From a virus, in UHGV virus genome UHGV-0242546: 10,762 bases of DNA; one strand, written 5' to 3'. Under the pieces are notes generated by a model. The model saw only the letters and a list, made by a program, of their open reading frames with translations, was not told the DNA's origin and ran no database searches. Both the position numbers and the translations under genes were made by a program. Shown piece after piece: positions 1 to 8,466 of this stretch; position 1 is the first letter of the stretch; each line of letters opens with the position of its first letter.

Positions 1-364
1 TGGGTTCCACATGAGATTTCATAAAATCTTCAGCAGCAGAATCCGTGGGCTGGAAAAGAAGGCTGTTGCGTGATTTATGCTCAATAAAATAAGCCTCCAC
101 TCCCAGCAACATCTTTGTATAACCAACACGGGCAGATTTAATCAGATTAACAGTGCGGATCCGGTCATTCCCCATGCTGTTCATGATGGCAACCTGAAAC
201 GGCAGTGTTTCCCACCGCCCCGGGGTGTAAGATGACTCTTTCGGAAGGTAATAATGTCGATCTGCCCACTGAACTGTCGTCAGAGGGACAGGAATTTTTA
301 GCGCAAGGAGGCCGGTTGCTATCGCTCCTGCAGAATTAGCCGCCCTCAGTTCGTCTGAAATCAT
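1..364 (-). CDS. A: Terminase large subunit (gpA-like), N-terminal ~121 aa only; gene continues beyond the window start
   Basis: Minus-strand translation from ATG at 364-362 reads [97 protein letters not shown]..., which parallels the lambda gpA N-terminus as I recall it (WAD.NYYLPKES...[14 protein letters not shown]...KSARVGYSKMLLGV). The start overlaps the 3' end of the Nu1-like gene by 29 nt, as in lambda, with a GGTGG Shine-Dalgarno 4 nt upstream. Not in the ORF track because it is truncated by the window edge. Confidence 0.85.
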
Positions 365-884
365 CAATCCACCTGCGCACATTCTCACCGGCTTCAGAAG
401 CCACATCGGATGCTTTCGCGATTTCAGTTTTCACAGCATCAAGATGTACGGGTGATATATCAGGGTATTTACGCTGCAGTGTCTGAGGGACACGGACAAG
501 GATCCCTGATATATTCTGTGCCACTCGCTGAAAGATGTAGGTAAATAACTCCGTCTCGAGGACAAGGCCTTCCTCACGAGCATTTTTCAGCTCCTGTGCA
601 TCGGCCTGTGCCTTCGTCAGTCGGTAACGTTCGTAATCAATGGTGCCGGGCTGAAGGTCTGATTCGCTGGCAGCCCTCAAATCCTCGATCTCTTTACGGA
701 GTTTTTCGTTTTCAATATCAGCTTCCCTCTGCGCATACCACTGAATGGCAGCAGTTGTATCAAAAACTGATTCAGTCCCTTTCCCTCCACCAGAAACTAG
801 TGGTAACCCCTGACTCTGCCAGGCGGTGATGGTCCTGACATCAACGCCAAAAATATCGGCCAGTTTTTTCTTATTGACGTTCAT
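336..884 (-). CDS. nu1: Terminase small subunit (gpNu1-like), 182 aa, N-terminal winged-HTH cosB-binding domain
   Basis: ORF-track protein [42 protein letters not shown]...[47 protein letters not shown] closely parallels lambda Nu1 as recalled (MEVNKKQLADIFGASIRTIQNWQEQGMP...). It lies immediately downstream of a cos site and upstream of the gpA homolog. Confidence 0.9.
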
Positions 885-1053
885 ACACTCCCCCGGGAAC
901 CAGAAAGGATCTGAAAATGGCGTTTTCTAACAAAAACAGCCTTTGTCAGATCCTTTTATATTTTTAAAATTCTATTGATAATCAATCAGTTAAAAAGAAG
1001 AAGAACGGATCTGATTTTTCCCTAAAAATTTTCATAAATAGCGAAAACCCGCG
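885..1053 (-). promoter_or_regulatory. cosB-like region (terminase Nu1 binding sites and probable IHF site) between cosN and the Nu1 start
   Basis: Minus-strand sequence between the cohesive-end site and the Nu1 ATG (CGCGGGTTTTCGCTATTTATGAAAATTTTTAGG...CCGTTCTTCTTC...) is near-identical over its first ~35 nt to the lambda left end as I recall it and contains the CGTTCTTCTTC element and an AT-rich block. Individual R1-R3 and I1 sites were not delimited. Confidence 0.6.
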
Positions 1054-1065
1054 AGGTCGCCGCCC
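1054..1065 (-). other. cosN: 12-nt cohesive-end site (GGGCGGCGACCT on the minus strand), flanked by a cosQ-like sequence at about 1066-1100
   Basis: Plus strand 1054-1065 is AGGTCGCCGCCC, the reverse complement of the lambda cohesive end GGGCGGCGACCT. The flanking minus-strand sequence GGGTCCTTTCCGGTGATCCAGACCGTTACG|GGGCGGCGACCT|CGCGGGTTTTCGCTATTTATGAAAATTTT matches the lambda right-end/left-end junction as recalled. Confidence 0.85.
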
Positions 1066-1288
1066 CGTAACGGTCTGGATCACCGGAAAGGACCCGCCAA
1101 CGACTTTCGCGTGCAGGCATTAAAAATTTTGCAGTTCCATGCCTAGTTGAAACCTCGATTTCTATAACATCCAATTTTGTAAATTTAGATATAGCTCAAC
1201 TTTTCCCAATGTTTTCAAGTGTATAAAAACAATTGGCGTTACGCCATAACACTATACTTAGGATAAGTAAAGATTTTAAGGAGTTTTA

Positions 1289-2356
1289 ATGAGTCAACAT
1301 CAATATTATCCACAGCTGAAATGGAAGCCTGCTGAATATGAATCTCTGATGCTTTTAGATCAAACTACGCTCTCTGGTTTTACTCCGATCATTACCATTC
1401 CAGACATAGACTGGGATTATGAAAACGAATGCTACAAGAAGAGTTTGAGTTCTTACTTATCTGACTTCGGTATTAACCTTGCGGCATCCTGGAAAGCCAA
1501 TCGTCCTGTTTTGCTGGATGTTAAATATTTAGATAAACATGGTTCGAGCCGCCATCATCCTCTAGATATGTGTATCCAAGATGCTAGAGTAAATGGTAAG
1601 GAAATTATCCCTGTTGTTTCTCCCGCATATTCAACAAACTATATACATGCTGTTCAACGCAACTTAATCAATGGGCTCGCTATATCTATCACCCCCCAGA
1701 CATGGCACCAATTCACAAGTCTGGTTAACCACTTAAATATTCATCCTAGTTTAATTGATGTAATCATTGATTTTGGAGATATTCAAAACGCAACTGATAG
1801 TTTAAAACAACAAGCATTAAGCATGGTCAACACATTATCAGGCCAAGCTCCGTGGAGAAACTTGATTTTATCTTCAACCGCATACCCAGCATCACAGGCA
1901 GGGATACCGCAACATCAAGTTCATCATATTCCGCGCCATGAATACGATCTTTGGATGTACGTAGTACAGAATTTTAGCAATGGAAGAACGCCAAGTTTTA
2001 GTGATTATCCCACCGCTAGCTCTACCATTACGAGCGTAGACCCACGCTTCATGTCTCAGTATGTCTCAGTGAGATATTCGAACGATACCTCATGGATCTT
2101 TGTAAAAGGTACCGCAGTTAAAGGAAATGGATGGGGCCAAACTAAAAACTTATGTACTACCCTTGTTAGTTCGCCAGAGTATCAAGTCTTTGGTTCCAAA
2201 TTTAGTTGGGGGGATGATTACATTTACCAAAGATCATTAGGCGCTAACAAATCTGGCGGCTCTAAAGAATGGCGTAAAGTTGCACATACGCACCATATTA
2301 CGTTAGTCGTGAGACAGCTTTATTGGTTGGCGCAGACTCAGCCTGCCAAGCCTTAA
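1289..2356 (+). CDS. Hypothetical 355-aa protein, AT-rich cargo gene, no recognisable catalytic motif; possibly a sce7725/Beta-protein-like partner (unverified)
   Basis: Long ORF with a strong Shine-Dalgarno (TAAGGAG, 5-nt spacer) before ATG 1289. Codon usage and GC content are clearly lower than the flanking phage backbone. It lies between the lysis-operon terminator and cos, the classic lambdoid moron position (bor/lom slot). Family assignment cannot be made without a profile search. Confidence 0.8.
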   Translation: MSQHQYYPQLKWKPAEYESLMLLDQTTLSGFTPIITIPDIDWDYENECYKKSLSSYLSDFGINLAASWKANRPVLLDVKYLDKHGSSRHHPLDMCIQDARVNGKEIIPVVSPAYSTNYIHAVQRNLINGLAISITPQTWHQFTSLVNHLNIHPSLIDVIIDFGDIQNATDSLKQQALSMVNTLSGQAPWRNLILSSTAYPASQAGIPQHQVHHIPRHEYDLWMYVVQNFSNGRTPSFSDYPTASSTITSVDPRFMSQYVSVRYSNDTSWIFVKGTAVKGNGWGQTKNLCTTLVSSPEYQVFGSKFSWGDDYIYQRSLGANKSGGSKEWRKVAHTHHITLVVRQLYWLAQTQPAKP

Positions 2357-2918
2357 CTTTCCAGCCTACGCGTTTCTTTAAGGCTGTTCTGACTTCAAGC
2401 CTGAGATTCGCTATTGGAATATTTTCCGCAATAATATTCCATAACTCAAATCGGGGCTTGCTTTTGATTCCTTTGGAATAGCCCCATCGTTCAAGTACGT
2501 CGATACATTCATCTTTCCAAAGCAATTGAGCGAGCATCAATGTGTCATGGTTTCGATTAAGCTTTTCTCCACGCATGTGCTTTATAAGAATGGCGCCTTT
2601 TGGCCCAACAGAAACCGTTTTAACGCCCCACCAACCTGGGATTAACTTTAATGCTCCCTCAAGATGTTTCTCAGCTACGACAAGAGTAACCTTGTCCATT
2701 ACAGAAGAATAATGCTTGATTTGAAGAGGCAAACGCTCCAAAGAGTCATATTCACTTTTGAGCTCGTACCCGTGTATAACACCATTTATTACAGCAATGT
2801 CTGCTCTACTGGCGCCAAGGGATATGGAAAATTCATCGACCACAAGGCAGTCTGGATCTAAATGCGATTCTTTCAAAAGCTTATGATGCACCGCGAACCT
2901 AACATCTTGATCTTTCAT
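2298..2918 (-). CDS. Hypothetical 206-aa protein with a PD-(D/E)xK nuclease-like motif arrangement, AT-rich cargo gene
   Basis: Strong Shine-Dalgarno (AAGGAG, 5-nt spacer) upstream of ATG 2918. Residues ~28-54 read VVDEF...SRADIAVINGVIHGYELK, i.e. acidic residue, then D, then E-x-K with restriction-endonuclease-fold spacing. Convergent with, and overlapping by 59 nt, the 3' end of the 355-aa gene. Confidence 0.8.
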   Translation of the reverse strand: MKDQDVRFAVHHKLLKESHLDPDCLVVDEFSISLGASRADIAVINGVIHGYELKSEYDSLERLPLQIKHYSSVMDKVTLVVAEKHLEGALKLIPGWWGVKTVSVGPKGAILIKHMRGEKLNRNHDTLMLAQLLWKDECIDVLERWGYSKGIKSKPRFELWNIIAENIPIANLRLEVRTALKKRVGWKVKAWQAESAPTNKAVSRLT

Positions 2919-2980
2919 GACTTCTCCTTACTCCCTCCGTTATTGAATTATAGCGCACTGCATTTTACTGCATTTGAGAG
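2919..2980 (-). promoter_or_regulatory. Putative promoter of the 206-aa gene: perfect -10 TATAAT (plus 2947-2952) preceded by a tandem direct repeat AATGCAGT x2
   Basis: Minus strand reads ...CAAATGCAGTAAAATGCAGTGCGCTATAATTCAATAACGGAGGGAGTAAGGAGAAGTCATG. The TATAAT lies 28 nt upstream of the ATG. There is no good -35 hexamer; instead the -35 position is occupied by two tandem AATGCAGT copies, a possible regulator binding site. Confidence 0.35.
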
Positions 2981-3266
2981 ATTTGACCACTTCAATCACA
3001 AAATGCTTATCTGCAGCAACAAGATTCATAGCCATACGACTATGGTGATTACCTTTTGTCTGGAAAACTGACCATTCCACGAAGATCAGATAGGTCTATA
3101 GAATCTTGGTTTGTCATAGCGTTCGCCTTACTTTGAGATGAACCTTTGCTGCATAGGAGATCAGCCCGTCAAGGCTCACCAGCACTAACTGACTACTCAA
3201 AGGCTCATTCCAAAGGGTTTGGTTCGACGTGGTTGAGTGCACTGCGGTGCGCGGTGAAATACCTGT

Positions 3267-3334: not shown

Positions 3335-3772
3335 TTATTTTAAGCACTGCGTCCTGATGTACTCCTGCAGGTAGTTGACCTGCGCGGTTATCTTGTCGAT
3401 TCCACTTCGGAGACGGTAATAATTGAGTTCAGCATCTGCTGTAAGTCTTGGGCTTTCTCCATTGCCCATGCCGCTGGCTCCGGTCGTTGACTTTGCACAG
3501 GTAGCGGCGACTTGCAGGCGCTTACGCCCAGCAGAAACATCAGCACGGAGGCTTTCGATAGTCGCGTTAGCATCAGCAAGCTCCTTTGTATATCTGGCAT
3601 CGAGTTCTGCTACGTCACGTTGACGCTTCTGCATATCAGCGATTGTGGATGTGGCTTTATCGCGCTGCTCTTTGTAGGTTATGGCGTTATCACGGTAATG
3701 ATTCAGCCCCAGACTAAGCGCACCACAGGCCACCAGCAGGGCAATGATGACCACGCACAGTACGCGGTTCAT
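3335..3772 (-). CDS. Rz: Rz i-spanin (inner-membrane spanin subunit), 145 aa
   Basis: Protein starts MNRVLCVVIIALLVACGALSLGLNHYRDNAITYKEQRDKA (N-terminal TM anchor then coiled-coil periplasmic domain), the typical Rz architecture. It is the last gene of the lysis cassette and has an embedded +1-frame lipoprotein ORF. Confidence 0.85.
   Translation of the reverse strand: MNRVLCVVIIALLVACGALSLGLNHYRDNAITYKEQRDKATSTIADMQKRQRDVAELDARYTKELADANATIESLRADVSAGRKRLQVAATCAKSTTGASGMGNGESPRLTADAELNYYRLRSGIDKITAQVNYLQEYIRTQCLK
3388..3573 (-). CDS. Rz1: Rz1 o-spanin (outer-membrane lipoprotein), embedded out of frame within Rz; ~61 aa precursor
   Basis: The +1-frame ORF inside Rz encodes MLTRLSKASVLMFLLGVSACKSPLPVQSQRPEPAAW...: signal peptide with lipobox (V-S-A-C) followed by a proline-rich mature peptide, as in lambda Rz1. 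The ORF track gives the longer version (3388-3600); the start at the second Met is chosen on signal-peptide logic. Confidence 0.7.
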   Translation of the reverse strand: MLTRLSKASVLMFLLGVSACKSPLPVQSQRPEPAAWAMEKAQDLQQMLNSIITVSEVESTR

Positions 3773-3773
3773 T

Positions 3774-3911
3774 TCACCACCAGCGTATCTGACCGATGAA
3801 ATAACCGGAGGCCATAATCACAAACACCAGCCAGATAAGAATGAACTTCCAGGTGGATAATTTTTCAGCCATCACTCGAATCTCCCGAATCAGTTTGCTA
3901 AAATCAAACAC
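3774..3911 (-). CDS. Small putative single-pass membrane protein (45 aa from GTG 3911, or 32 aa from ATG 3872), translationally coupled to Rz
   Basis: AGGAG Shine-Dalgarno 6 nt upstream of GTG at 3911. Product MFDFSKLIREIRVMAEKLSTWKFILIWLVFVIMASGYFIGQIRWW has one clear hydrophobic helix. Its TGA stop lies 1 nt before the Rz ATG. The long N-terminal extension in the 89-aa track ORF is Lys-rich low-complexity and contains a hairpin, so it is probably non-coding. Confidence 0.4.
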   Translation of the reverse strand: MFDFSKLIREIRVMAEKLSTWKFILIWLVFVIMASGYFIGQIRWW

Positions 3912-3947
3912 ACTTTCTCCTTTGACTTTTCCGGAGTCAGGAAACAC

Positions 3948-3981
3948 AAAACCCCGCTTGCAGCCAACAAACGGGGTTTTT
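3948..3981. terminator. Terminator-like hairpin between endolysin R and the small membrane ORF; strand ambiguous (T-tract is better on the plus strand)
   Basis: AAAACCCCG-(15-nt loop)-CGGGGTTTTT. The 9-bp stem is flanked by an A-run on one side and a T-run on the other. On the minus strand (gene direction) the stem is followed by UUUUGUGUUUCC. Confidence 0.45.
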
Positions 3982-4070
3982 ACTTTTATTCTCTTAGTTT
4001 TTGTCAGTTCGCAGGATTTCGTGTTATCCGTCCGTGTGAGCAAACCGCATTTTTCAGCAAAATATTCTGC

Positions 4071-4604
4071 TTATCTGTCAATTCCCCAGCACGCCAGCGC
4101 ACTCTCCTGGTCGCGACGGGATACCTGACCGTAACAGTTGTTTGAGCGAATACGGCAGTCTCTGCCACCGACCTTAATCCACCAGCGAATCGCCTCACAC
4201 GCTCCCCTGCGATCACCTGCATTAATTCGTTTATAAAACGTCGACGGAAAACACTTACCGGGGCCAATGTTGTACGGACAGAATGACGCGATCCCCGCTT
4301 TCTGGGGTTCACTCAATGGCACTCTGATGTTTTTCTCCACCCATGCCAGCGCCTTATCACGCTCAATGGCGTTAACCCGGTCGCATTTTTCCTTCGACAA
4401 CTTCATGCCCGGAACGACAGGTTTGCCATCCACCAGGATGGCACCGCGGCAGATGGTCCAGATACCCGCGCCATCACGGTATGCCGTGGTGTGGTTACCT
4501 TCCTTTTCATCCAGAAACTGGTCGAGAATGTCAGGCGCAGGCGCACCAGCGGCAATCAGCGCCAGAACGGCAGCCGACAGGCCGTATTTGATTTTGGTGT
4601 TCAT
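4071..4604 (-). CDS. R: SAR endolysin (phage-21 R-type lysozyme, T4-lysozyme fold with N-terminal signal-anchor-release domain), 177 aa
   Basis: N-terminus MNTKIKYGLSAAVLALIAAGAPAP is a weakly hydrophobic, Gly/Ala-rich SAR-type segment. It is followed by EGNHTTAYRDGAGIWTICRGA, the E-x8-D-x5-T catalytic-triad spacing of T4-type lysozymes. It sits downstream of a pinholin-type S. Confidence 0.9.
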   Translation of the reverse strand: MNTKIKYGLSAAVLALIAAGAPAPDILDQFLDEKEGNHTTAYRDGAGIWTICRGAILVDGKPVVPGMKLSKEKCDRVNAIERDKALAWVEKNIRVPLSEPQKAGIASFCPYNIGPGKCFPSTFYKRINAGDRRGACEAIRWWIKVGGRDCRIRSNNCYGQVSRRDQESALACWGIDR

Positions 4605-4667
4605 GGATATTTATCAGGATTTATCGGTTTCTGCCCACGGACAGGTTTATCTGTTCCGGTCAGTGAC

Positions 4668-5018
4668 TTAAGGTTGTGATTCCGGAGGAGTCTTCAGAGA
4701 ACCAGTAATTCTTCCCGGTAGCTTTCCTTTGTAGGTTATCCATACATTCTGCGCCTCTAAAATTACGGGGCGCTTTTCCGGCGACTGCTCATCCCCTTCA
4801 CATAACCCGGCAGCAACATCCAGGAAGACCTGTCTGATGCTCCTTCTGGCTGCTGCCTCATAAAACTCCAGCGCGGCACCTTCAACACGGTCCAGCGAGA
4901 TGTCCAGGTCAAAAATTTCACCGTCAAAGCGTTTTTTGTCCCGTAACGCTAAAGTTACCGTAACTTTATTCTCAAAATTGCGGATCCCTTTCACAATCAG
5001 TTTATAGTTTTGAGTCAT
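4668..5018 (-). CDS. Hypothetical phage protein located between holin and endolysin (YdfR/DUF1327-like by position), 116 aa
   Basis: ORF with ATG at 5018 starting 4 nt after the holin stop. From memory, E. coli cryptic prophages carry a DUF1327 gene (ydfR) in the same holin-endolysin slot. The family call is positional and recalled, not computed. Confidence 0.65.
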   Translation of the reverse strand: MTQNYKLIVKGIRNFENKVTVTLALRDKKRFDGEIFDLDISLDRVEGAALEFYEAAARRSIRQVFLDVAAGLCEGDEQSPEKRPVILEAQNVWITYKGKLPGRITGSLKTPPESQP

Positions 5019-5022
5019 TGAA

Positions 5023-5238
5023 TTACTCTCCCCGTGCAGCCTTACGACGGTCCTCTCTGATTTTGAAATACAGGTTAGTCAGATATGTCAGCAGCCCAAA
5101 CAGCAGACTCCCCAGCACGCCTATTGCCGCCCACTGAGACGGGGAAACCCTGTCCAGCAACTGCAGGAACCAGTAGCCCGTTCCCACCGCTGACGTGGTG
5201 TATGACACACCTGTTGTGATTTTTTCCATCTGGTACAT
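5023..5238 (-). CDS. S: Pinholin S (phage 21 / 933W-type class II holin), 71 aa, dual-start motif MYQM
   Basis: [71 protein letters not shown] closely parallels S21 as recalled (...[25 protein letters not shown]...[20 protein letters not shown]). Two Met codons three codons apart are typical of a holin/antiholin dual start. The 106-aa track ORF is an upstream extension. Confidence 0.85.
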
Positions 5239-5272
5239 ACCCCGTCTCCCGTTATCCGGAAGCTGACAACAA

Positions 5273-5302
5273 TAAAAAAGCCACCAGTTAAGTACTGATG
5301 GC
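5273..5302 (-). terminator. Rho-independent terminator between nanS-p and holin S
   Basis: Minus-strand RNA GCCAUCAG-(7-nt loop)-CUGGUGGC (8 bp including one G-U pair) followed by UUUUUUAUUG. Confidence 0.55.
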
Positions 5303-5387
5303 TCTGATAACTCATGCAGGCGTCTCAGACGACCCACTGACACTACCGGTGAGTTTAACGATACCTTCCATTTGACTGGCTCACTTT

Positions 5388-7463: not shown

Positions 7464-7469
7464 GTCCAT

Positions 7470-7705
7470 AAGAAAGCCCCTCCGGAGAGGGGCTAAAGCC
7501 GCGTATCTGTATCATCATGCACATGGTGCCGGGTGCCTCCCGGTGAGTTCAGCCCGGTGCCACTAAACCCGCGTCATTCTCGTTTTGATAATCAGAGATT
7601 ATACCGTCACCAGTCGCCCCTCCGCTCAGGGGGATTCACCATGCGAAATTTTTTTAACAAATGCCCAGTCTGACAGGCAACTGTCAACTTACTGAATTGT
7701 GAGCA
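7470..7705. repeat. Direct repeat copy A of a ~230-bp structured non-coding element
   Basis: Shares conserved blocks with copy B, in the same order with divergent spacers: AGAAAGCCCCTCCGGAGAGGGGCT, CATGGTGCCGGGTGCCTCCCGGTGA(G/A)TTCAG, GCCCCTCCGC(T/A)CAGGGGGATTCACCATGC, TTTTAACAAA, CTGAATTGTGAG. Confidence 0.7.
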
Positions 7706-7767: not shown

Positions 7768-7956
7768 TGGAAGGATAGCGGTCATGTGATGCCGGTTTCC
7801 CGGTAACTCAGCACCGGTATCTGAGTCAACGTTTTCTCTACTGGGTCATTTCCGATACGCCCTGCCTGCTGACAGGCTTTCATCACATCTGAAAATATAG
7901 CACCCTGACTGATACTGTAGTACCTAAGGTTCCAGAAACTGTGATGTATCCGGCAC

Positions 7957-8175
7957 AGAAAAGCCCCTCCGGAGAGGGGCTGGAGAGTGGCGCTATGTGC
8001 CATTGCATGGTGCCGGGTGCCTCCCGGTGAATTCAGTACCAGCACCTGAATCCGCGATTATCCCATATACCTACTCGCTGATTGCCCCTCCGCACAGGGG
8101 GATTCACCATGCCAGTTTCTTTTAACAAACTCCCCGCAAACCAGACAACAGTCAACCGCCTGAATTGTGAGACAT
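7957..8175. repeat. Direct repeat copy B of the ~230-bp structured non-coding element
   Basis: See copy A. Same conserved blocks in the same order, immediately downstream (in transcription sense) of tRNA argO and its terminator. Confidence 0.7.
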
Positions 8176-8216: not shown

Positions 8217-8293
8217 TGGCGCGTTGTACTGGATTCGAACCAGTGACCGATTGCTTAGAAGGCAATTGCTCTGTCCGGCTGAGCTAACAACGC
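8217..8293 (-). tRNA. argO: tRNA-Arg (anticodon UCU, reads AGA), phage argO-like
   Basis: Minus strand GCGTTGTTAGCTCAGCCGGACAGAGCAATTGCCTTCTAAGCAATCGGTCACTGGTTCGAATCCAGTACAACGCGCCA folds as a canonical cloverleaf: 7-bp acceptor stem, GCTC/GAGC D-stem, anticodon loop CTTCTAA, T-loop TTCGAAT, encoded CCA. Confidence 0.9.
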
Positions 8294-8306
8294 AGGATAC
8301 AGATAA

Positions 8307-8383
8307 TGGACCGCCTTCGGGGACCCGAACTCCGCGCAACCAGCTTCGAAGGCTGGCGCTCTTTCCTGATGAGCTAATGGCGG
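8307..8383 (-). tRNA. argN: tRNA-Arg-like (anticodon UCG as read, would decode CGA), phage argN-like, with non-canonical features
   Basis: Minus strand CCGCCATTAGCTCATCAGGAAAGAGCGCCAGCCTTCGAAGCTGGTTGCGCGGAGTTCGGGTCCCCGAAGGCGGTCCA. Cloverleaf is recognisable (GCTC/GAGC D-stem, anticodon stem CCAGC/GCTGG, loop CTTCGAA, encoded CCA), but it has an A-A mismatch in the acceptor stem, one T-stem mismatch and G instead of the conserved A58. Confidence 0.7.
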
Positions 8384-8390
8384 TATGTGA

Positions 8391-8466
8391 TGGTGGCCCT
8401 TGCTGGATTTGAACCAGCGACCTGGCGATTATGAGTCGCTCGCTCTCACCACTGAGCTAAAGGGCC
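8391..8466 (-). tRNA. ileZ: tRNA-Ile2 (anticodon CAU, lysidine-type, reads AUA), phage ileZ-like
   Basis: Minus strand GGCCCTTTAGCTCAGTGGTGAGAGCGAGCGACTCATAATCGCCAGGTCGCTGGTTCAAATCCAGCAAGGGCCACCA is near-identical to E. coli tRNA-Ile2 (ileX) as I recall it; anticodon loop CTCATAA. Confidence 0.9.

What the first reader, a model, noticed from the sequence alone, without database searches (positions are those of the whole stretch)
2298..2356. Convergent genes overlap by 59 nt at their 3' ends with no terminator between them
The two cassette ORFs run toward each other and their coding regions overlap by about 20 codons each. Their transcripts must therefore be mutually antisense over the overlap, which would allow transcriptional interference or RNA-RNA regulation between the two partners, an arrangement more typical of toxin/antidote-like pairs than of operonic genes. 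Alternatively, one C-terminal tail is a read-through artefact.
Basis: seen in the sequence. Interest (0 to 1): 0.5.

Follow-up and report, generated by a model that had tools for sequence, protein, structure and literature searches.

The report
Tail-to-tail overlapping beta/cII-like defence gene pair
Two real, convergent genes of a phage-defence-type cassette in an E. coli prophage do overlap by 59 bases. Most of that length comes from a harmless lost stop codon, but ending tail-to-tail with no spacer is an old trait of this gene pair, shared across many bacterial phyla.

Summary
ORF 1289-2356(+) is a Pfam Beta_protein and ORF 2298-2918(-) is an sce7726/P4-cII-family protein. They converge, share 59 nt, and have no terminator-like hairpin nearby. 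The pair is a gop-less relative of the P4 gop-beta-cII anti-phage system, sitting in the Rz-cos moron site of a lambdoid prophage. It occurs in 127 of 5,426 complete E. coli genomes.

Of the 59 nt, 48 are lineage-specific. Relatives in Klebsiella, Pantoea, Edwardsiella, Pectobacterium, Providencia and Cronobacter have TAG where E. coli has TGG (W191, 2346-2348), giving an 11-nt overlap. That change is silent in beta (Ala353 GCT->GCC). The resulting 16-residue tail is unconserved and predicted disordered.

Across the wider family, in 59 species-level loci from many phyla the two genes are always convergent, and 57 overlap (median about 50 nt). Codon phase is the same in about 90%, and an sce7726 Trp codon lies exactly 30 nt from a beta His-His codon in 35 loci. 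Only about 15 nt carry constraint from both frames; the rest is unconstrained tail.

Where a 39-nt spacer separates the cores, as in the E. coli clade, the overlap drifts from -39 to +59 nt. This argues for inherited dual-coding constraint, not selection for overlap. Antisense regulation stays untested.

The parts
1289..2356 (+). The beta gene (355 aa), a Pfam Beta_protein homologue of P4 beta with a TIM-barrel-like predicted fold. Its C-terminal helix (residues 325-350) runs into the overlap.
2298..2918 (-). The sce7726 / P4-cII-family gene (206 aa; Pfam PF26915 Phage_P4_cII). It has a PD-(D/E)xK-like core with invariant D40, E52 and K54. The conserved part ends at about residue 187-190.
2298..2356 (.). 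The 59-nt 3'-3' coding overlap. Codon position 1 of one gene faces position 1 of the other, and position 2 faces position 3.
2346..2348 (-). The stop-loss codon: TGG (Trp191) in E. coli and E. albertii, TAG in Klebsiella, Pantoea, Edwardsiella and Pectobacterium. On the plus strand this is beta Ala353 GCC versus GCT, a synonymous change.
2298..2345 (-). The lineage-specific read-through of sce7726 (residues 192-206 plus the TAA stop at 2298-2300). It is unconserved and has pLDDT below 50. The stop lies antisense to beta Ile337-Thr338 (ATT ACG).
2321..2357 (.). A clade-specific spacer of about 39 nt, phase-preserving, between the deep-family cores (beta ...QL344 and sce7726 W186-K187). It is translated as the beta tail YWLAQTQPAKP*, whose PAxP motif is conserved within the clade.
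1276..3005 (.). The cassette unit conserved at 74-76% DNA identity between genera. It runs from 13 nt upstream of the beta ATG to about 87 nt upstream of the sce7726 ATG; outside it lies lambdoid backbone.
2962..2989 (-). A sigma-70 promoter-like site (TGGTCA-16-TAAAAT) upstream of sce7726, inside the conserved unit. This is a consensus match only.

Best explanation
The window carries a two-gene, gop-less relative of the P4 gop-beta-cII anti-phage locus. One gene encodes a TIM-barrel-like Beta protein and the other a PD-(D/E)xK-like sce7726/cII protein. The cassette is inserted as a moron between Rz and cos of a lambdoid prophage.

The two genes are separate, convergent transcription units that end tail-to-tail with no intergenic spacer and no intrinsic terminator. 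This architecture was inherited from a deep ancestor of the family, in which the last constrained residues of both proteins are encoded on opposite strands of the same roughly 15 nt. Any indel there would damage both proteins, so the junction is frozen. Each ORF then runs on as an unconstrained tail until it meets a stop that happens to lie antisense to the partner's conserved codons.

In the enterobacterial/Vibrio clade a 39-nt in-phase spacer separated the cores, and the overlap became labile. In E. coli a TAG->TGG change, silent in beta, let sce7726 read 16 codons further, which raised the overlap from 11 to 59 nt. The extra tail is most likely functionless.

Shown: gene identities, the overlap, the stop-loss, family-wide convergence, the fixed spacing and phase, and the constraint pattern. 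Inferred: the frozen-junction explanation, neutrality of the tail, and that the mRNAs overlap in antisense (a logical necessity only if both genes are expressed in the same cell).
For: Identities; RefSeq annotation; P4 and Rac-SA53 annotation.

Stop-loss: homologues at 80-86% identity end ...DWKVRV* at residue 190. The DNA alignment shows TAG versus TGG, equivalent to beta GCT versus GCC.

Tails: the sce7726 tail has pLDDT below 50. Its frame carries further stops in relatives. The beta tail is conserved down to 45% identity and lies within a confident helix.

Family architecture: 57 of 59 loci from Proteobacteria, Patescibacteria, Bacteroidota, Acidobacteriota, Myxococcota, Firmicutes and others are convergent and overlapping, with a median of 50 nt and the same phase in about 90%. 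The Trp-to-HisHis spacing is exactly 30 nt in 35 loci. Information per codon position switches from the sce7726-frame pattern to the beta-frame pattern within about 15 nt.

Lability once spaced: overlaps of -39, -14, -4, +4, +11 (eight loci) and +59 nt.

No terminator or RNA structure.
Against: There are no expression data, so a regulatory use of the 3' complementarity cannot be excluded. The universal convergent orientation is itself unusual for a two-gene defence module and is not explained by the frozen junction alone. The direction of the TAG/TGG change rests on parsimony across five genera, and Cronobacter turicensis P0002 carries a different 12-residue extension. The 16-residue tail is fixed in all 127 E. 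coli copies, but this is uninformative because the copies are 99% identical or more. The family sample was recruited with sce7726 peptide patterns, so very divergent arrangements, such as P4 with its 27-nt gap and terminator, are under-sampled.
Confidence: 0.72

Rival explanations
1. The 3' overlap is a selected regulatory device. Convergent transcription without a terminator produces complementary 3' ends and RNA polymerase collisions, so expression of the nuclease-like sce7726 and of Beta is mutually limited or bistable. In a prophage, read-through from the phage operon (sense to sce7726, antisense to beta) would tip the balance.
For: The orientation is convergent in all 59 loci, and also in P4 and Rac-SA53. 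Terminator-like hairpins are absent after either stop in the window and are not enriched across the family. In four of four phage contexts the cII-like gene is co-oriented with the surrounding phage operon while beta opposes it. The related P4 locus behaves as a toxin-antitoxin-like abortive-infection system. Antisense and collision control is documented for R-M and TA systems (PMC12707154).
Against: Coding overlap is not maintained once a spacer exists (-39 to +59 nt). P4 has a gap with a terminator. There is no conserved RNA structure and no excess folding energy. Only about 15 nt are dual-constrained, and that constraint is fully explained by the protein sequences. There are no transcript data.
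Confidence: 0.2
2. The 16-residue extension of sce7726 is a functional, newly acquired C-terminal peptide in E. coli, for example a degron or an interaction tail. On this view the 59-nt overlap reflects positive selection.
For: The extension is fixed in all 127 E. coli genomes that carry the cassette and in E. albertii. Other lineages also carry short, varying extensions (P0002, P0017, P0021).
Against: The E. coli copies are 99% identical or more, so fixation carries no information. The tail sequence is dictated by the antisense of the conserved beta tail. It is predicted disordered. The causal mutation is synonymous in beta, as expected for drift. Extensions in other lineages differ in length and sequence.
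Confidence: 0.05
3. The overlap is an annotation or sequencing artefact, and one of the two ORFs is not a gene or is frameshifted.
For: Published surveys found that most long convergent overlaps are 3'-extension misannotations (PMC2478687).
Against: Both ORFs match curated families over their full profiles. They are conserved as a pair in 59 species. The sequence is identical in many independent complete genomes. Stop codons define the overlap, so start-codon errors are irrelevant.
Confidence: 0.02

Closest known systems
Satellite phage P4 gop-beta-cII locus (NC_001609), an anti-phage system active against lambda and P1 (Rousset et al. 2022, PMC9519451)
   Same: It has homologous beta (22% identity, E 5e-7) and cII (27% identity, E 3e-18) genes, also convergent tail-to-tail. 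It sits in a mobile-element hotspot next to cos. Its behaviour is toxin-antitoxin-like.
   Different: P4 has a third gene, gop, the toxic component; gop is absent here and in all 59 loci. P4 cII is 264 aa, with about 70 extra C-terminal residues. P4 beta and cII do not overlap: a 27-nt gap holds an annotated rho-independent terminator.
The beta / 'CII phage-like' pair of Escherichia phage Rac-SA53 (KU052037)
   Same: It is a two-gene, gop-less, convergent pair in a lambdoid prophage with overlapping 3' ends (41 nt).
   Different: The beta is only about 30% identical. The pair sits in the nin/early region instead of Rz-cos. It has the ancestral core-abutting junction, not the spaced junction with a stop-loss.
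PD-lambda-2 defence system (Vassallo et al. 2022, PMC9519451)
   Same: Its third component, PD-lambda-2C, is a Beta-family protein; the window's beta matches the PADLOC PD-Lambda-2_C model at E 4e-32 over residues 141-344. That component is required for defence but not for neutralising the toxin.
   Different: Its partners are a HigB-like toxin and an Xre-peptidase arranged in an operon. There is no sce7726/cII gene and no convergent overlap.
Conserved convergent overlapping gene pairs in prokaryotes (Pallejà et al. 2008, PMC2478687; Rogozin et al. 2002, as cited there)
   Same: It is a tail-to-tail overlap in the phase reported as commonest for longer convergent overlaps (position 1 facing position 1; bioRxiv 10.1101/2025.11.07.687268). 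Part of the overlap arose by stop-codon loss, the mechanism those studies describe.
   Different: That survey found its plausible long convergent overlaps mostly conserved only among very close species. Here the junction is fixed across phyla, at 20-45% protein identity.
Convergent or antisense promoter control in restriction-modification and toxin-antitoxin systems, such as Eco29kI and EcoRI (review PMC12707154)
   Same: In both cases a potentially toxic nuclease-type gene faces opposing transcription, which gives scope for collision and antisense RNA.
   Different: In those systems dedicated reverse promoters inside the gene were demonstrated experimentally. Here nothing beyond gene geometry is known.

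Membership tests
Pfam Beta_protein (PF14350) / 'beta family protein' | A match to the family profile above the gathering score, over the whole domain | tested here: met
   190.4 bits against a cut-off of 27; residues 6-342 match profile positions 1-342 of 342.
NCBIfam sce7726_fam (NF033832) / Pfam PF26915 Phage_P4_cII | A match to the family profile above the curated cut-off | tested here: met
   184.1 bits against a cut-off of 70; residues 1-183 match profile positions 1-182 of 184. Homologues carry PF26915.
gop-beta-cII anti-phage system (P4 type) | Presence of a beta homologue and a cII homologue as adjacent convergent genes | tested here: met
   PADLOC 'beta' at E 3.5e-10 and 'cll' at E 4e-31; blastp to the P4 proteins; P4 gene geometry.
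gop-beta-cII anti-phage system (P4 type) | Presence of gop, the toxic first gene of the operon | tested here: not met
   There is no ORF upstream of beta (885-1288 is non-coding and contains cos). tblastn with P4 gop finds nothing in the window or in any of the loci. The cassette therefore works like the system and is related to it, but is not a member of the three-gene system.
gop-beta-cII anti-phage system (P4 type) | Demonstrated protection against phage, or abortive infection | not testable with these tools
   This is shown only for the P4/ECOR three-gene loci.
PD-(D/E)xK nuclease superfamily (for sce7726) | A restriction-endonuclease-like fold with the D...(D/E)xK motif | tested here: inconclusive
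   D40, E52 and K54 are invariant in 29 homologues. The AF2 model is confident (pLDDT 88.8). The best PDB matches are SPO1766 (3dnx), SfsA and tRNA-splicing endonucleases, but only at E 2e-4 to 1e-1 and TM 0.3-0.56. Catalysis was not tested.
Type II toxin-antitoxin pair | One product toxic, neutralised by the other; usually a co-directional, autoregulated operon | not testable with these tools
   Toxicity is unknown. The geometry is convergent, not operonic. The literature calls P4 gop/beta toxin-antitoxin-like.
Conserved convergent overlapping gene pair | An overlap defined by stop codons and present in orthologous pairs of distant species | tested here: met
   57 of 59 loci overlap; the phase is conserved in about 90%; the 30-nt motif spacing is identical in 35 loci.

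The most novel reading that the evidence does not exclude
The spacer-less, terminator-less tail-to-tail junction is a built-in expression switch of a widespread, uncharacterised two-gene defence module. Mutual antisense and polymerase collision keep the PD-(D/E)xK-like sce7726 protein and the Beta protein in balance. In prophages, lytic read-through is sense to sce7726 and antisense to beta in four of four contexts, and would flip that balance. The module's geometry would then itself act as a sensor of phage transcription.
Probability: 0.12. Interest if true: 0.65.

Novelty: new variant of a known kind. Interest (0 to 1): 0.42.

Why it matters
For this window, the 59-nt overlap is mostly a silent-in-partner stop-loss and needs no special mechanism, so annotators can trust both ORFs. 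More generally, the beta/sce7726 pair gives a clean natural example of a convergent gene junction frozen across phyla by dual coding of two protein C-termini. It also offers a within-family control, the spaced clade, in which the overlap drifts freely. Finally, the widespread form of the P4 gop-beta-cII family is a two-gene, gop-less cassette with no experimental characterisation. It occupies prophage moron hotspots and is a reasonable candidate for defence testing.

Tried and rejected
- **Intrinsic terminators.** The scan found none between or just after the stops in the window. A home-made scan of 57 loci showed no enrichment downstream of either stop: 0.3-0.9 per kb against a background of 0.56 per kb.
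- **RNA structure.** Folding of the overlap on both strands gave z -0.4 and +0.6. The 2330-2450 plus-strand stretch gave z -2.1, but only because of a 9-bp AU-rich hairpin with no U-tract. I rejected this as a terminator.
- **Rfam.** Nothing in the cassette.
- **Search for gop.** Absent.
- **Literature.** Searches for 'sce7726' and 'PF14350' found only genome reports that merely contain the name, or nothing.
- **Failed or mis-specified calls.** The first homologue search timed out and was repeated. One paper search was rejected because a term was too short. My first stop-finding script over-counted the overlap in L002, L005, L023, L026 and L032, because tblastn aligned through stop codons; one search corrected this. 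A first motif regex failed and was replaced.
- **Duplication origin of the spacer.** I considered whether the 39-nt spacer arose by tandem duplication of the ancestral overlap (50 - 39 = 11). I saw no convincing residual similarity, so this stays speculation.
- **Polymorphism.** I looked for informative variation in the overlap among E. coli genomes. The one copy I aligned, out of 32 that differ from the window in this 86-nt stretch, carries G2313A (beta R342K, synonymous in sce7726). That is too little for a selection test.

Full report
**Observation.** The ORF table lists 1289..2356 on the plus strand (355 aa) and 2298..2918 on the minus strand (206 aa). They converge and share 2298-2356, which is 59 nt. 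Codon position 1 of one gene faces position 1 of the other; this follows from 2918 - 1289 being divisible by 3.

Both ORFs are genuine genes.
- The plus-strand protein matches Pfam Beta_protein PF14350 over the whole 342-position profile (190 bits). It also matches the PADLOC models 'beta' and PD-Lambda-2_C.
- The minus-strand protein matches NCBIfam sce7726_fam (184 bits against a cut-off of 70) and the PADLOC 'cll' model. Its homologues carry Pfam PF26915, named Phage_P4_cII.
- A 100% identical E. coli chromosome is annotated by RefSeq with exactly these two CDS.

**Context.** The pair lies in a lambdoid prophage between the lysis gene Rz (3335-3772, minus) and the small terminase subunit Nu1 (336-884, minus). 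The lambda cos sequence is at about 1022-1065. The prophage flanks are common: 4,228 of 5,426 complete E. coli genomes match them. Only 127 genomes hold the cassette, all at 99% identity or more. Between genera the conserved unit runs from about 1276 to about 3005.

**What the genes are.** P4 (NC_001609) carries gop (+), beta (+) and cII (-). RefSeq names the last two 'beta family protein' and 'sce7726 family protein'. gop-beta-cII protects against lambda and P1 and is regarded as toxin-antitoxin-like (PMC9519451). Its toxicity is triggered by a phage accessory gene (bioRxiv 10.1101/2023.04.06.535777).

The window's proteins are distant homologues of P4 beta (22% identity) and cII (27% identity). 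There is no gop in the window or in any related locus.

An AlphaFold model of the sce7726 protein is confident (pLDDT 88.8) except for residues 189-206, which fall below 50. Its best PDB matches are weak but consistent PD-(D/E)xK-type folds: 3dnx, SfsA and tRNA-splicing endonucleases. D40, E52 and K54 are invariant.

The Beta model is also confident (pLDDT 92.1) and TIM-barrel-like. It has a long C-terminal helix spanning residues 325-350.

A Beta-family protein is also the third component of PD-lambda-2. There it is needed for defence but not for neutralising the toxin (PMC9519451).

**The 59 nt dissected.** Homologues of the sce7726 protein at 80-86% identity are 190 aa long and end ...DWKV[RK][VA]*. 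Only E. coli and E. albertii continue for 16 more residues.

The DNA alignment shows TAG in Edwardsiella, Klebsiella, Pantoea and Pectobacterium where E. coli has TGG (2346-2348, minus strand). On the plus strand the difference is beta Ala353 GCT versus GCC, which is synonymous. With TAG the overlap is 11 nt, as it also is in Providencia and in a Cronobacter-type prophage.

Beyond that codon the sce7726 frame is not conserved and contains further stops in relatives. The beta tail behaves differently: YWLAQTQPAKP is conserved in length, keeps a PAxP motif down to 45% identity, and lies largely within the confident helix.

The E. coli read-through ends at TAA 2298-2300, which lies antisense to beta Ile337-Thr338 (ATT ACG), just after the invariant His335-His336. 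So 48 of the 59 nt come from a stop-loss that is silent in the partner gene. The added tail is most likely functionless.

**The family-wide picture.** A pattern scan of one genome per species returned 65 loci. In 59 of them both genes are present with intact 3' ends. In all 59 the beta gene is convergent and immediately downstream. In 57 the ORFs overlap.
- The range is 10-158 nt and the median about 50 nt, with modes at 50, 41 and 56 nt.
- These counts come from stop codons only.
- The loci come from Gamma-, Beta- and Alphaproteobacteria, Desulfobacterota, Myxococcota, Acidobacteriota, Bacteroidota, Ignavibacteriota, Patescibacteria, Omnitrophota, Armatimonadota and Firmicutes.
- The relative codon phase is identical in about 90% of pairs.
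- In 35 loci the near-invariant Trp codon of sce7726 (R-x-x-W-R) lies exactly 30 nt from the second His codon of the beta N-H-H motif on the other strand.

Information content per codon position shows where each frame is constrained. Upstream of the junction the pattern fits the sce7726 frame: 0.59, 1.00 and 0.20 bits at positions 1, 2 and 3. Downstream it fits the beta frame. The switch happens within roughly -6 to +8 nt of the Trp codon.

Only about 15 nt are therefore constrained by both proteins. The rest of each ORF's overlap is an unconstrained tail running antisense through the partner's conserved end. Each tail ends at a stop that the partner's codons happen to create. For example, the sce7726 stop falls inside beta's I-N or I-T codons, and the beta stop inside sce7726's L-K-x-R codons.

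**The spaced clade as an internal control.** In the clade that includes E. coli (beta 42% identical or more), the Trp-to-HisHis distance is 69-70 nt instead of 30. This corresponds to a 39-nt spacer, in phase in the E. coli group.

There the overlap varies widely:

| Overlap (nt) | Locus |
|---|---|
| -39 | Xenorhabdus (L010) |
| -14 | Photobacterium (L007) |
| -4 | Vibrio (L071) |
| +4 | Yersinia type (L070) |
| +11 | eight loci |
| +59 | E. coli and E. albertii |

P4 has a 27-nt gap with a terminator. Once the cores are separated, coding overlap is evidently not maintained. This argues that the deep conservation reflects joint purifying selection on two co-encoded C-termini, a frozen junction, and not selection for overlap in itself.

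**Regulation.** No terminator-like hairpin lies near the junction in the window. Such hairpins are not enriched after either stop in 57 loci. The overlap has no excess RNA structure, and Rfam finds nothing in the cassette.

If both genes are transcribed, their mRNAs must be complementary over at least the overlap and probably further. Whether cells exploit this is unknown. Antisense and collision control is documented for R-M and TA systems (PMC12707154), so the idea is reasonable. I rate it about 0.2 as a selected function.

One observation is suggestive. In all four phage contexts examined, the cII-like gene is co-oriented with the surrounding phage operon and beta opposes it.

**Comparison with general knowledge.** Convergent overlaps made up about 7% of the overlaps of well-characterised gene pairs in one survey. 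[quoted passage not shown] The phase seen here is the one reported as commonest among longer convergent overlaps (bioRxiv 10.1101/2025.11.07.687268).

The E. coli 59-nt case fits the '3' extension by stop-codon mutation' class. The cross-phylum fixed junction of the family is unusual, and I did not find it described.

**Verdict.** The cassette is a gop-less, two-gene variant of a known defence family, with an anciently frozen tail-to-tail junction. Interest is moderate.

Noticed in passing
window 3335-5343 and 336-884 (minus strand); L070, L072, L068: In four of four phage contexts the cII-like gene points the same way as the surrounding phage operon (lysis-to-terminase late genes, or the early-right/nin region in Rac-SA53), and beta points against it. 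Phage read-through would therefore be sense to sce7726 and antisense to beta.
   Followed up: partly
window 1234-1246 (minus strand): A terminator-like hairpin (TGGCGTAACGCCA followed by a T-run) lies just beyond the 5' end of beta on the opposite strand. It could stop minus-strand transcripts after they have crossed the whole of beta in antisense. It lies outside the inter-genus conserved unit (about 1276-3005).
   Followed up: partly
window 2415-2441: A perfect 9-bp inverted repeat (TGGAATATT ... AATATTCCA, 9-nt loop) lies inside the sce7726 coding region, about 60 nt past the beta stop. It accounts for the z -2.1 fold of 2330-2450(+). There is no U-tract, so it is not a canonical terminator.
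   Followed up: partly
window 1022-1065: The reverse complement of the lambda left end/cos sequence (GGGCGGCGACCTCGCGGGTTTTCGCTATTTATGAAAATTTT...) is present. The cassette therefore sits in the Rz-cos moron site next to cos, the same kind of position (adjacent to cos) as the P4 hotspot that holds gop-beta-cII.
   Followed up: partly
E. coli genomes NZ_CM129638.1 (H53) and NZ_CM128593.1 (H54): In two of the 127 carriers the cassette is interrupted by an insertion sequence: IS1 between or within the pair, and IS5 splitting beta. This hints that loss of function is tolerated or sometimes favoured.
   Followed up: no
window 7464-7673 and 7951-8141 (minus strand); 8220-8466 (minus strand): There are two copies of the sRNA family STnc100 (165 and 136 bits) and three tRNA genes (annotated Arg, Arg and Ile in the identical RefSeq record). 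They lie between the SASA-family esterase gene and a DNA methyltransferase gene of the prophage.
   Followed up: no
window 2313; L069: The one copy I aligned, out of 32 E. coli copies that differ from the window in the 86-nt stretch around the overlap, carries G2313A. This makes beta R342K and is synonymous (GTC->GTT Val) in the sce7726 read-through tail.
   Followed up: yes
L022, L040, L056, L058 (Acidobacteriota and Dormibacterota-type MAGs): In these loci beta lacks the usual stop and reads 137-158 nt antisense into sce7726. This gives much longer overlaps with arginine/serine-rich tails. I did not examine whether these are real extensions or assembly errors.
   Followed up: no
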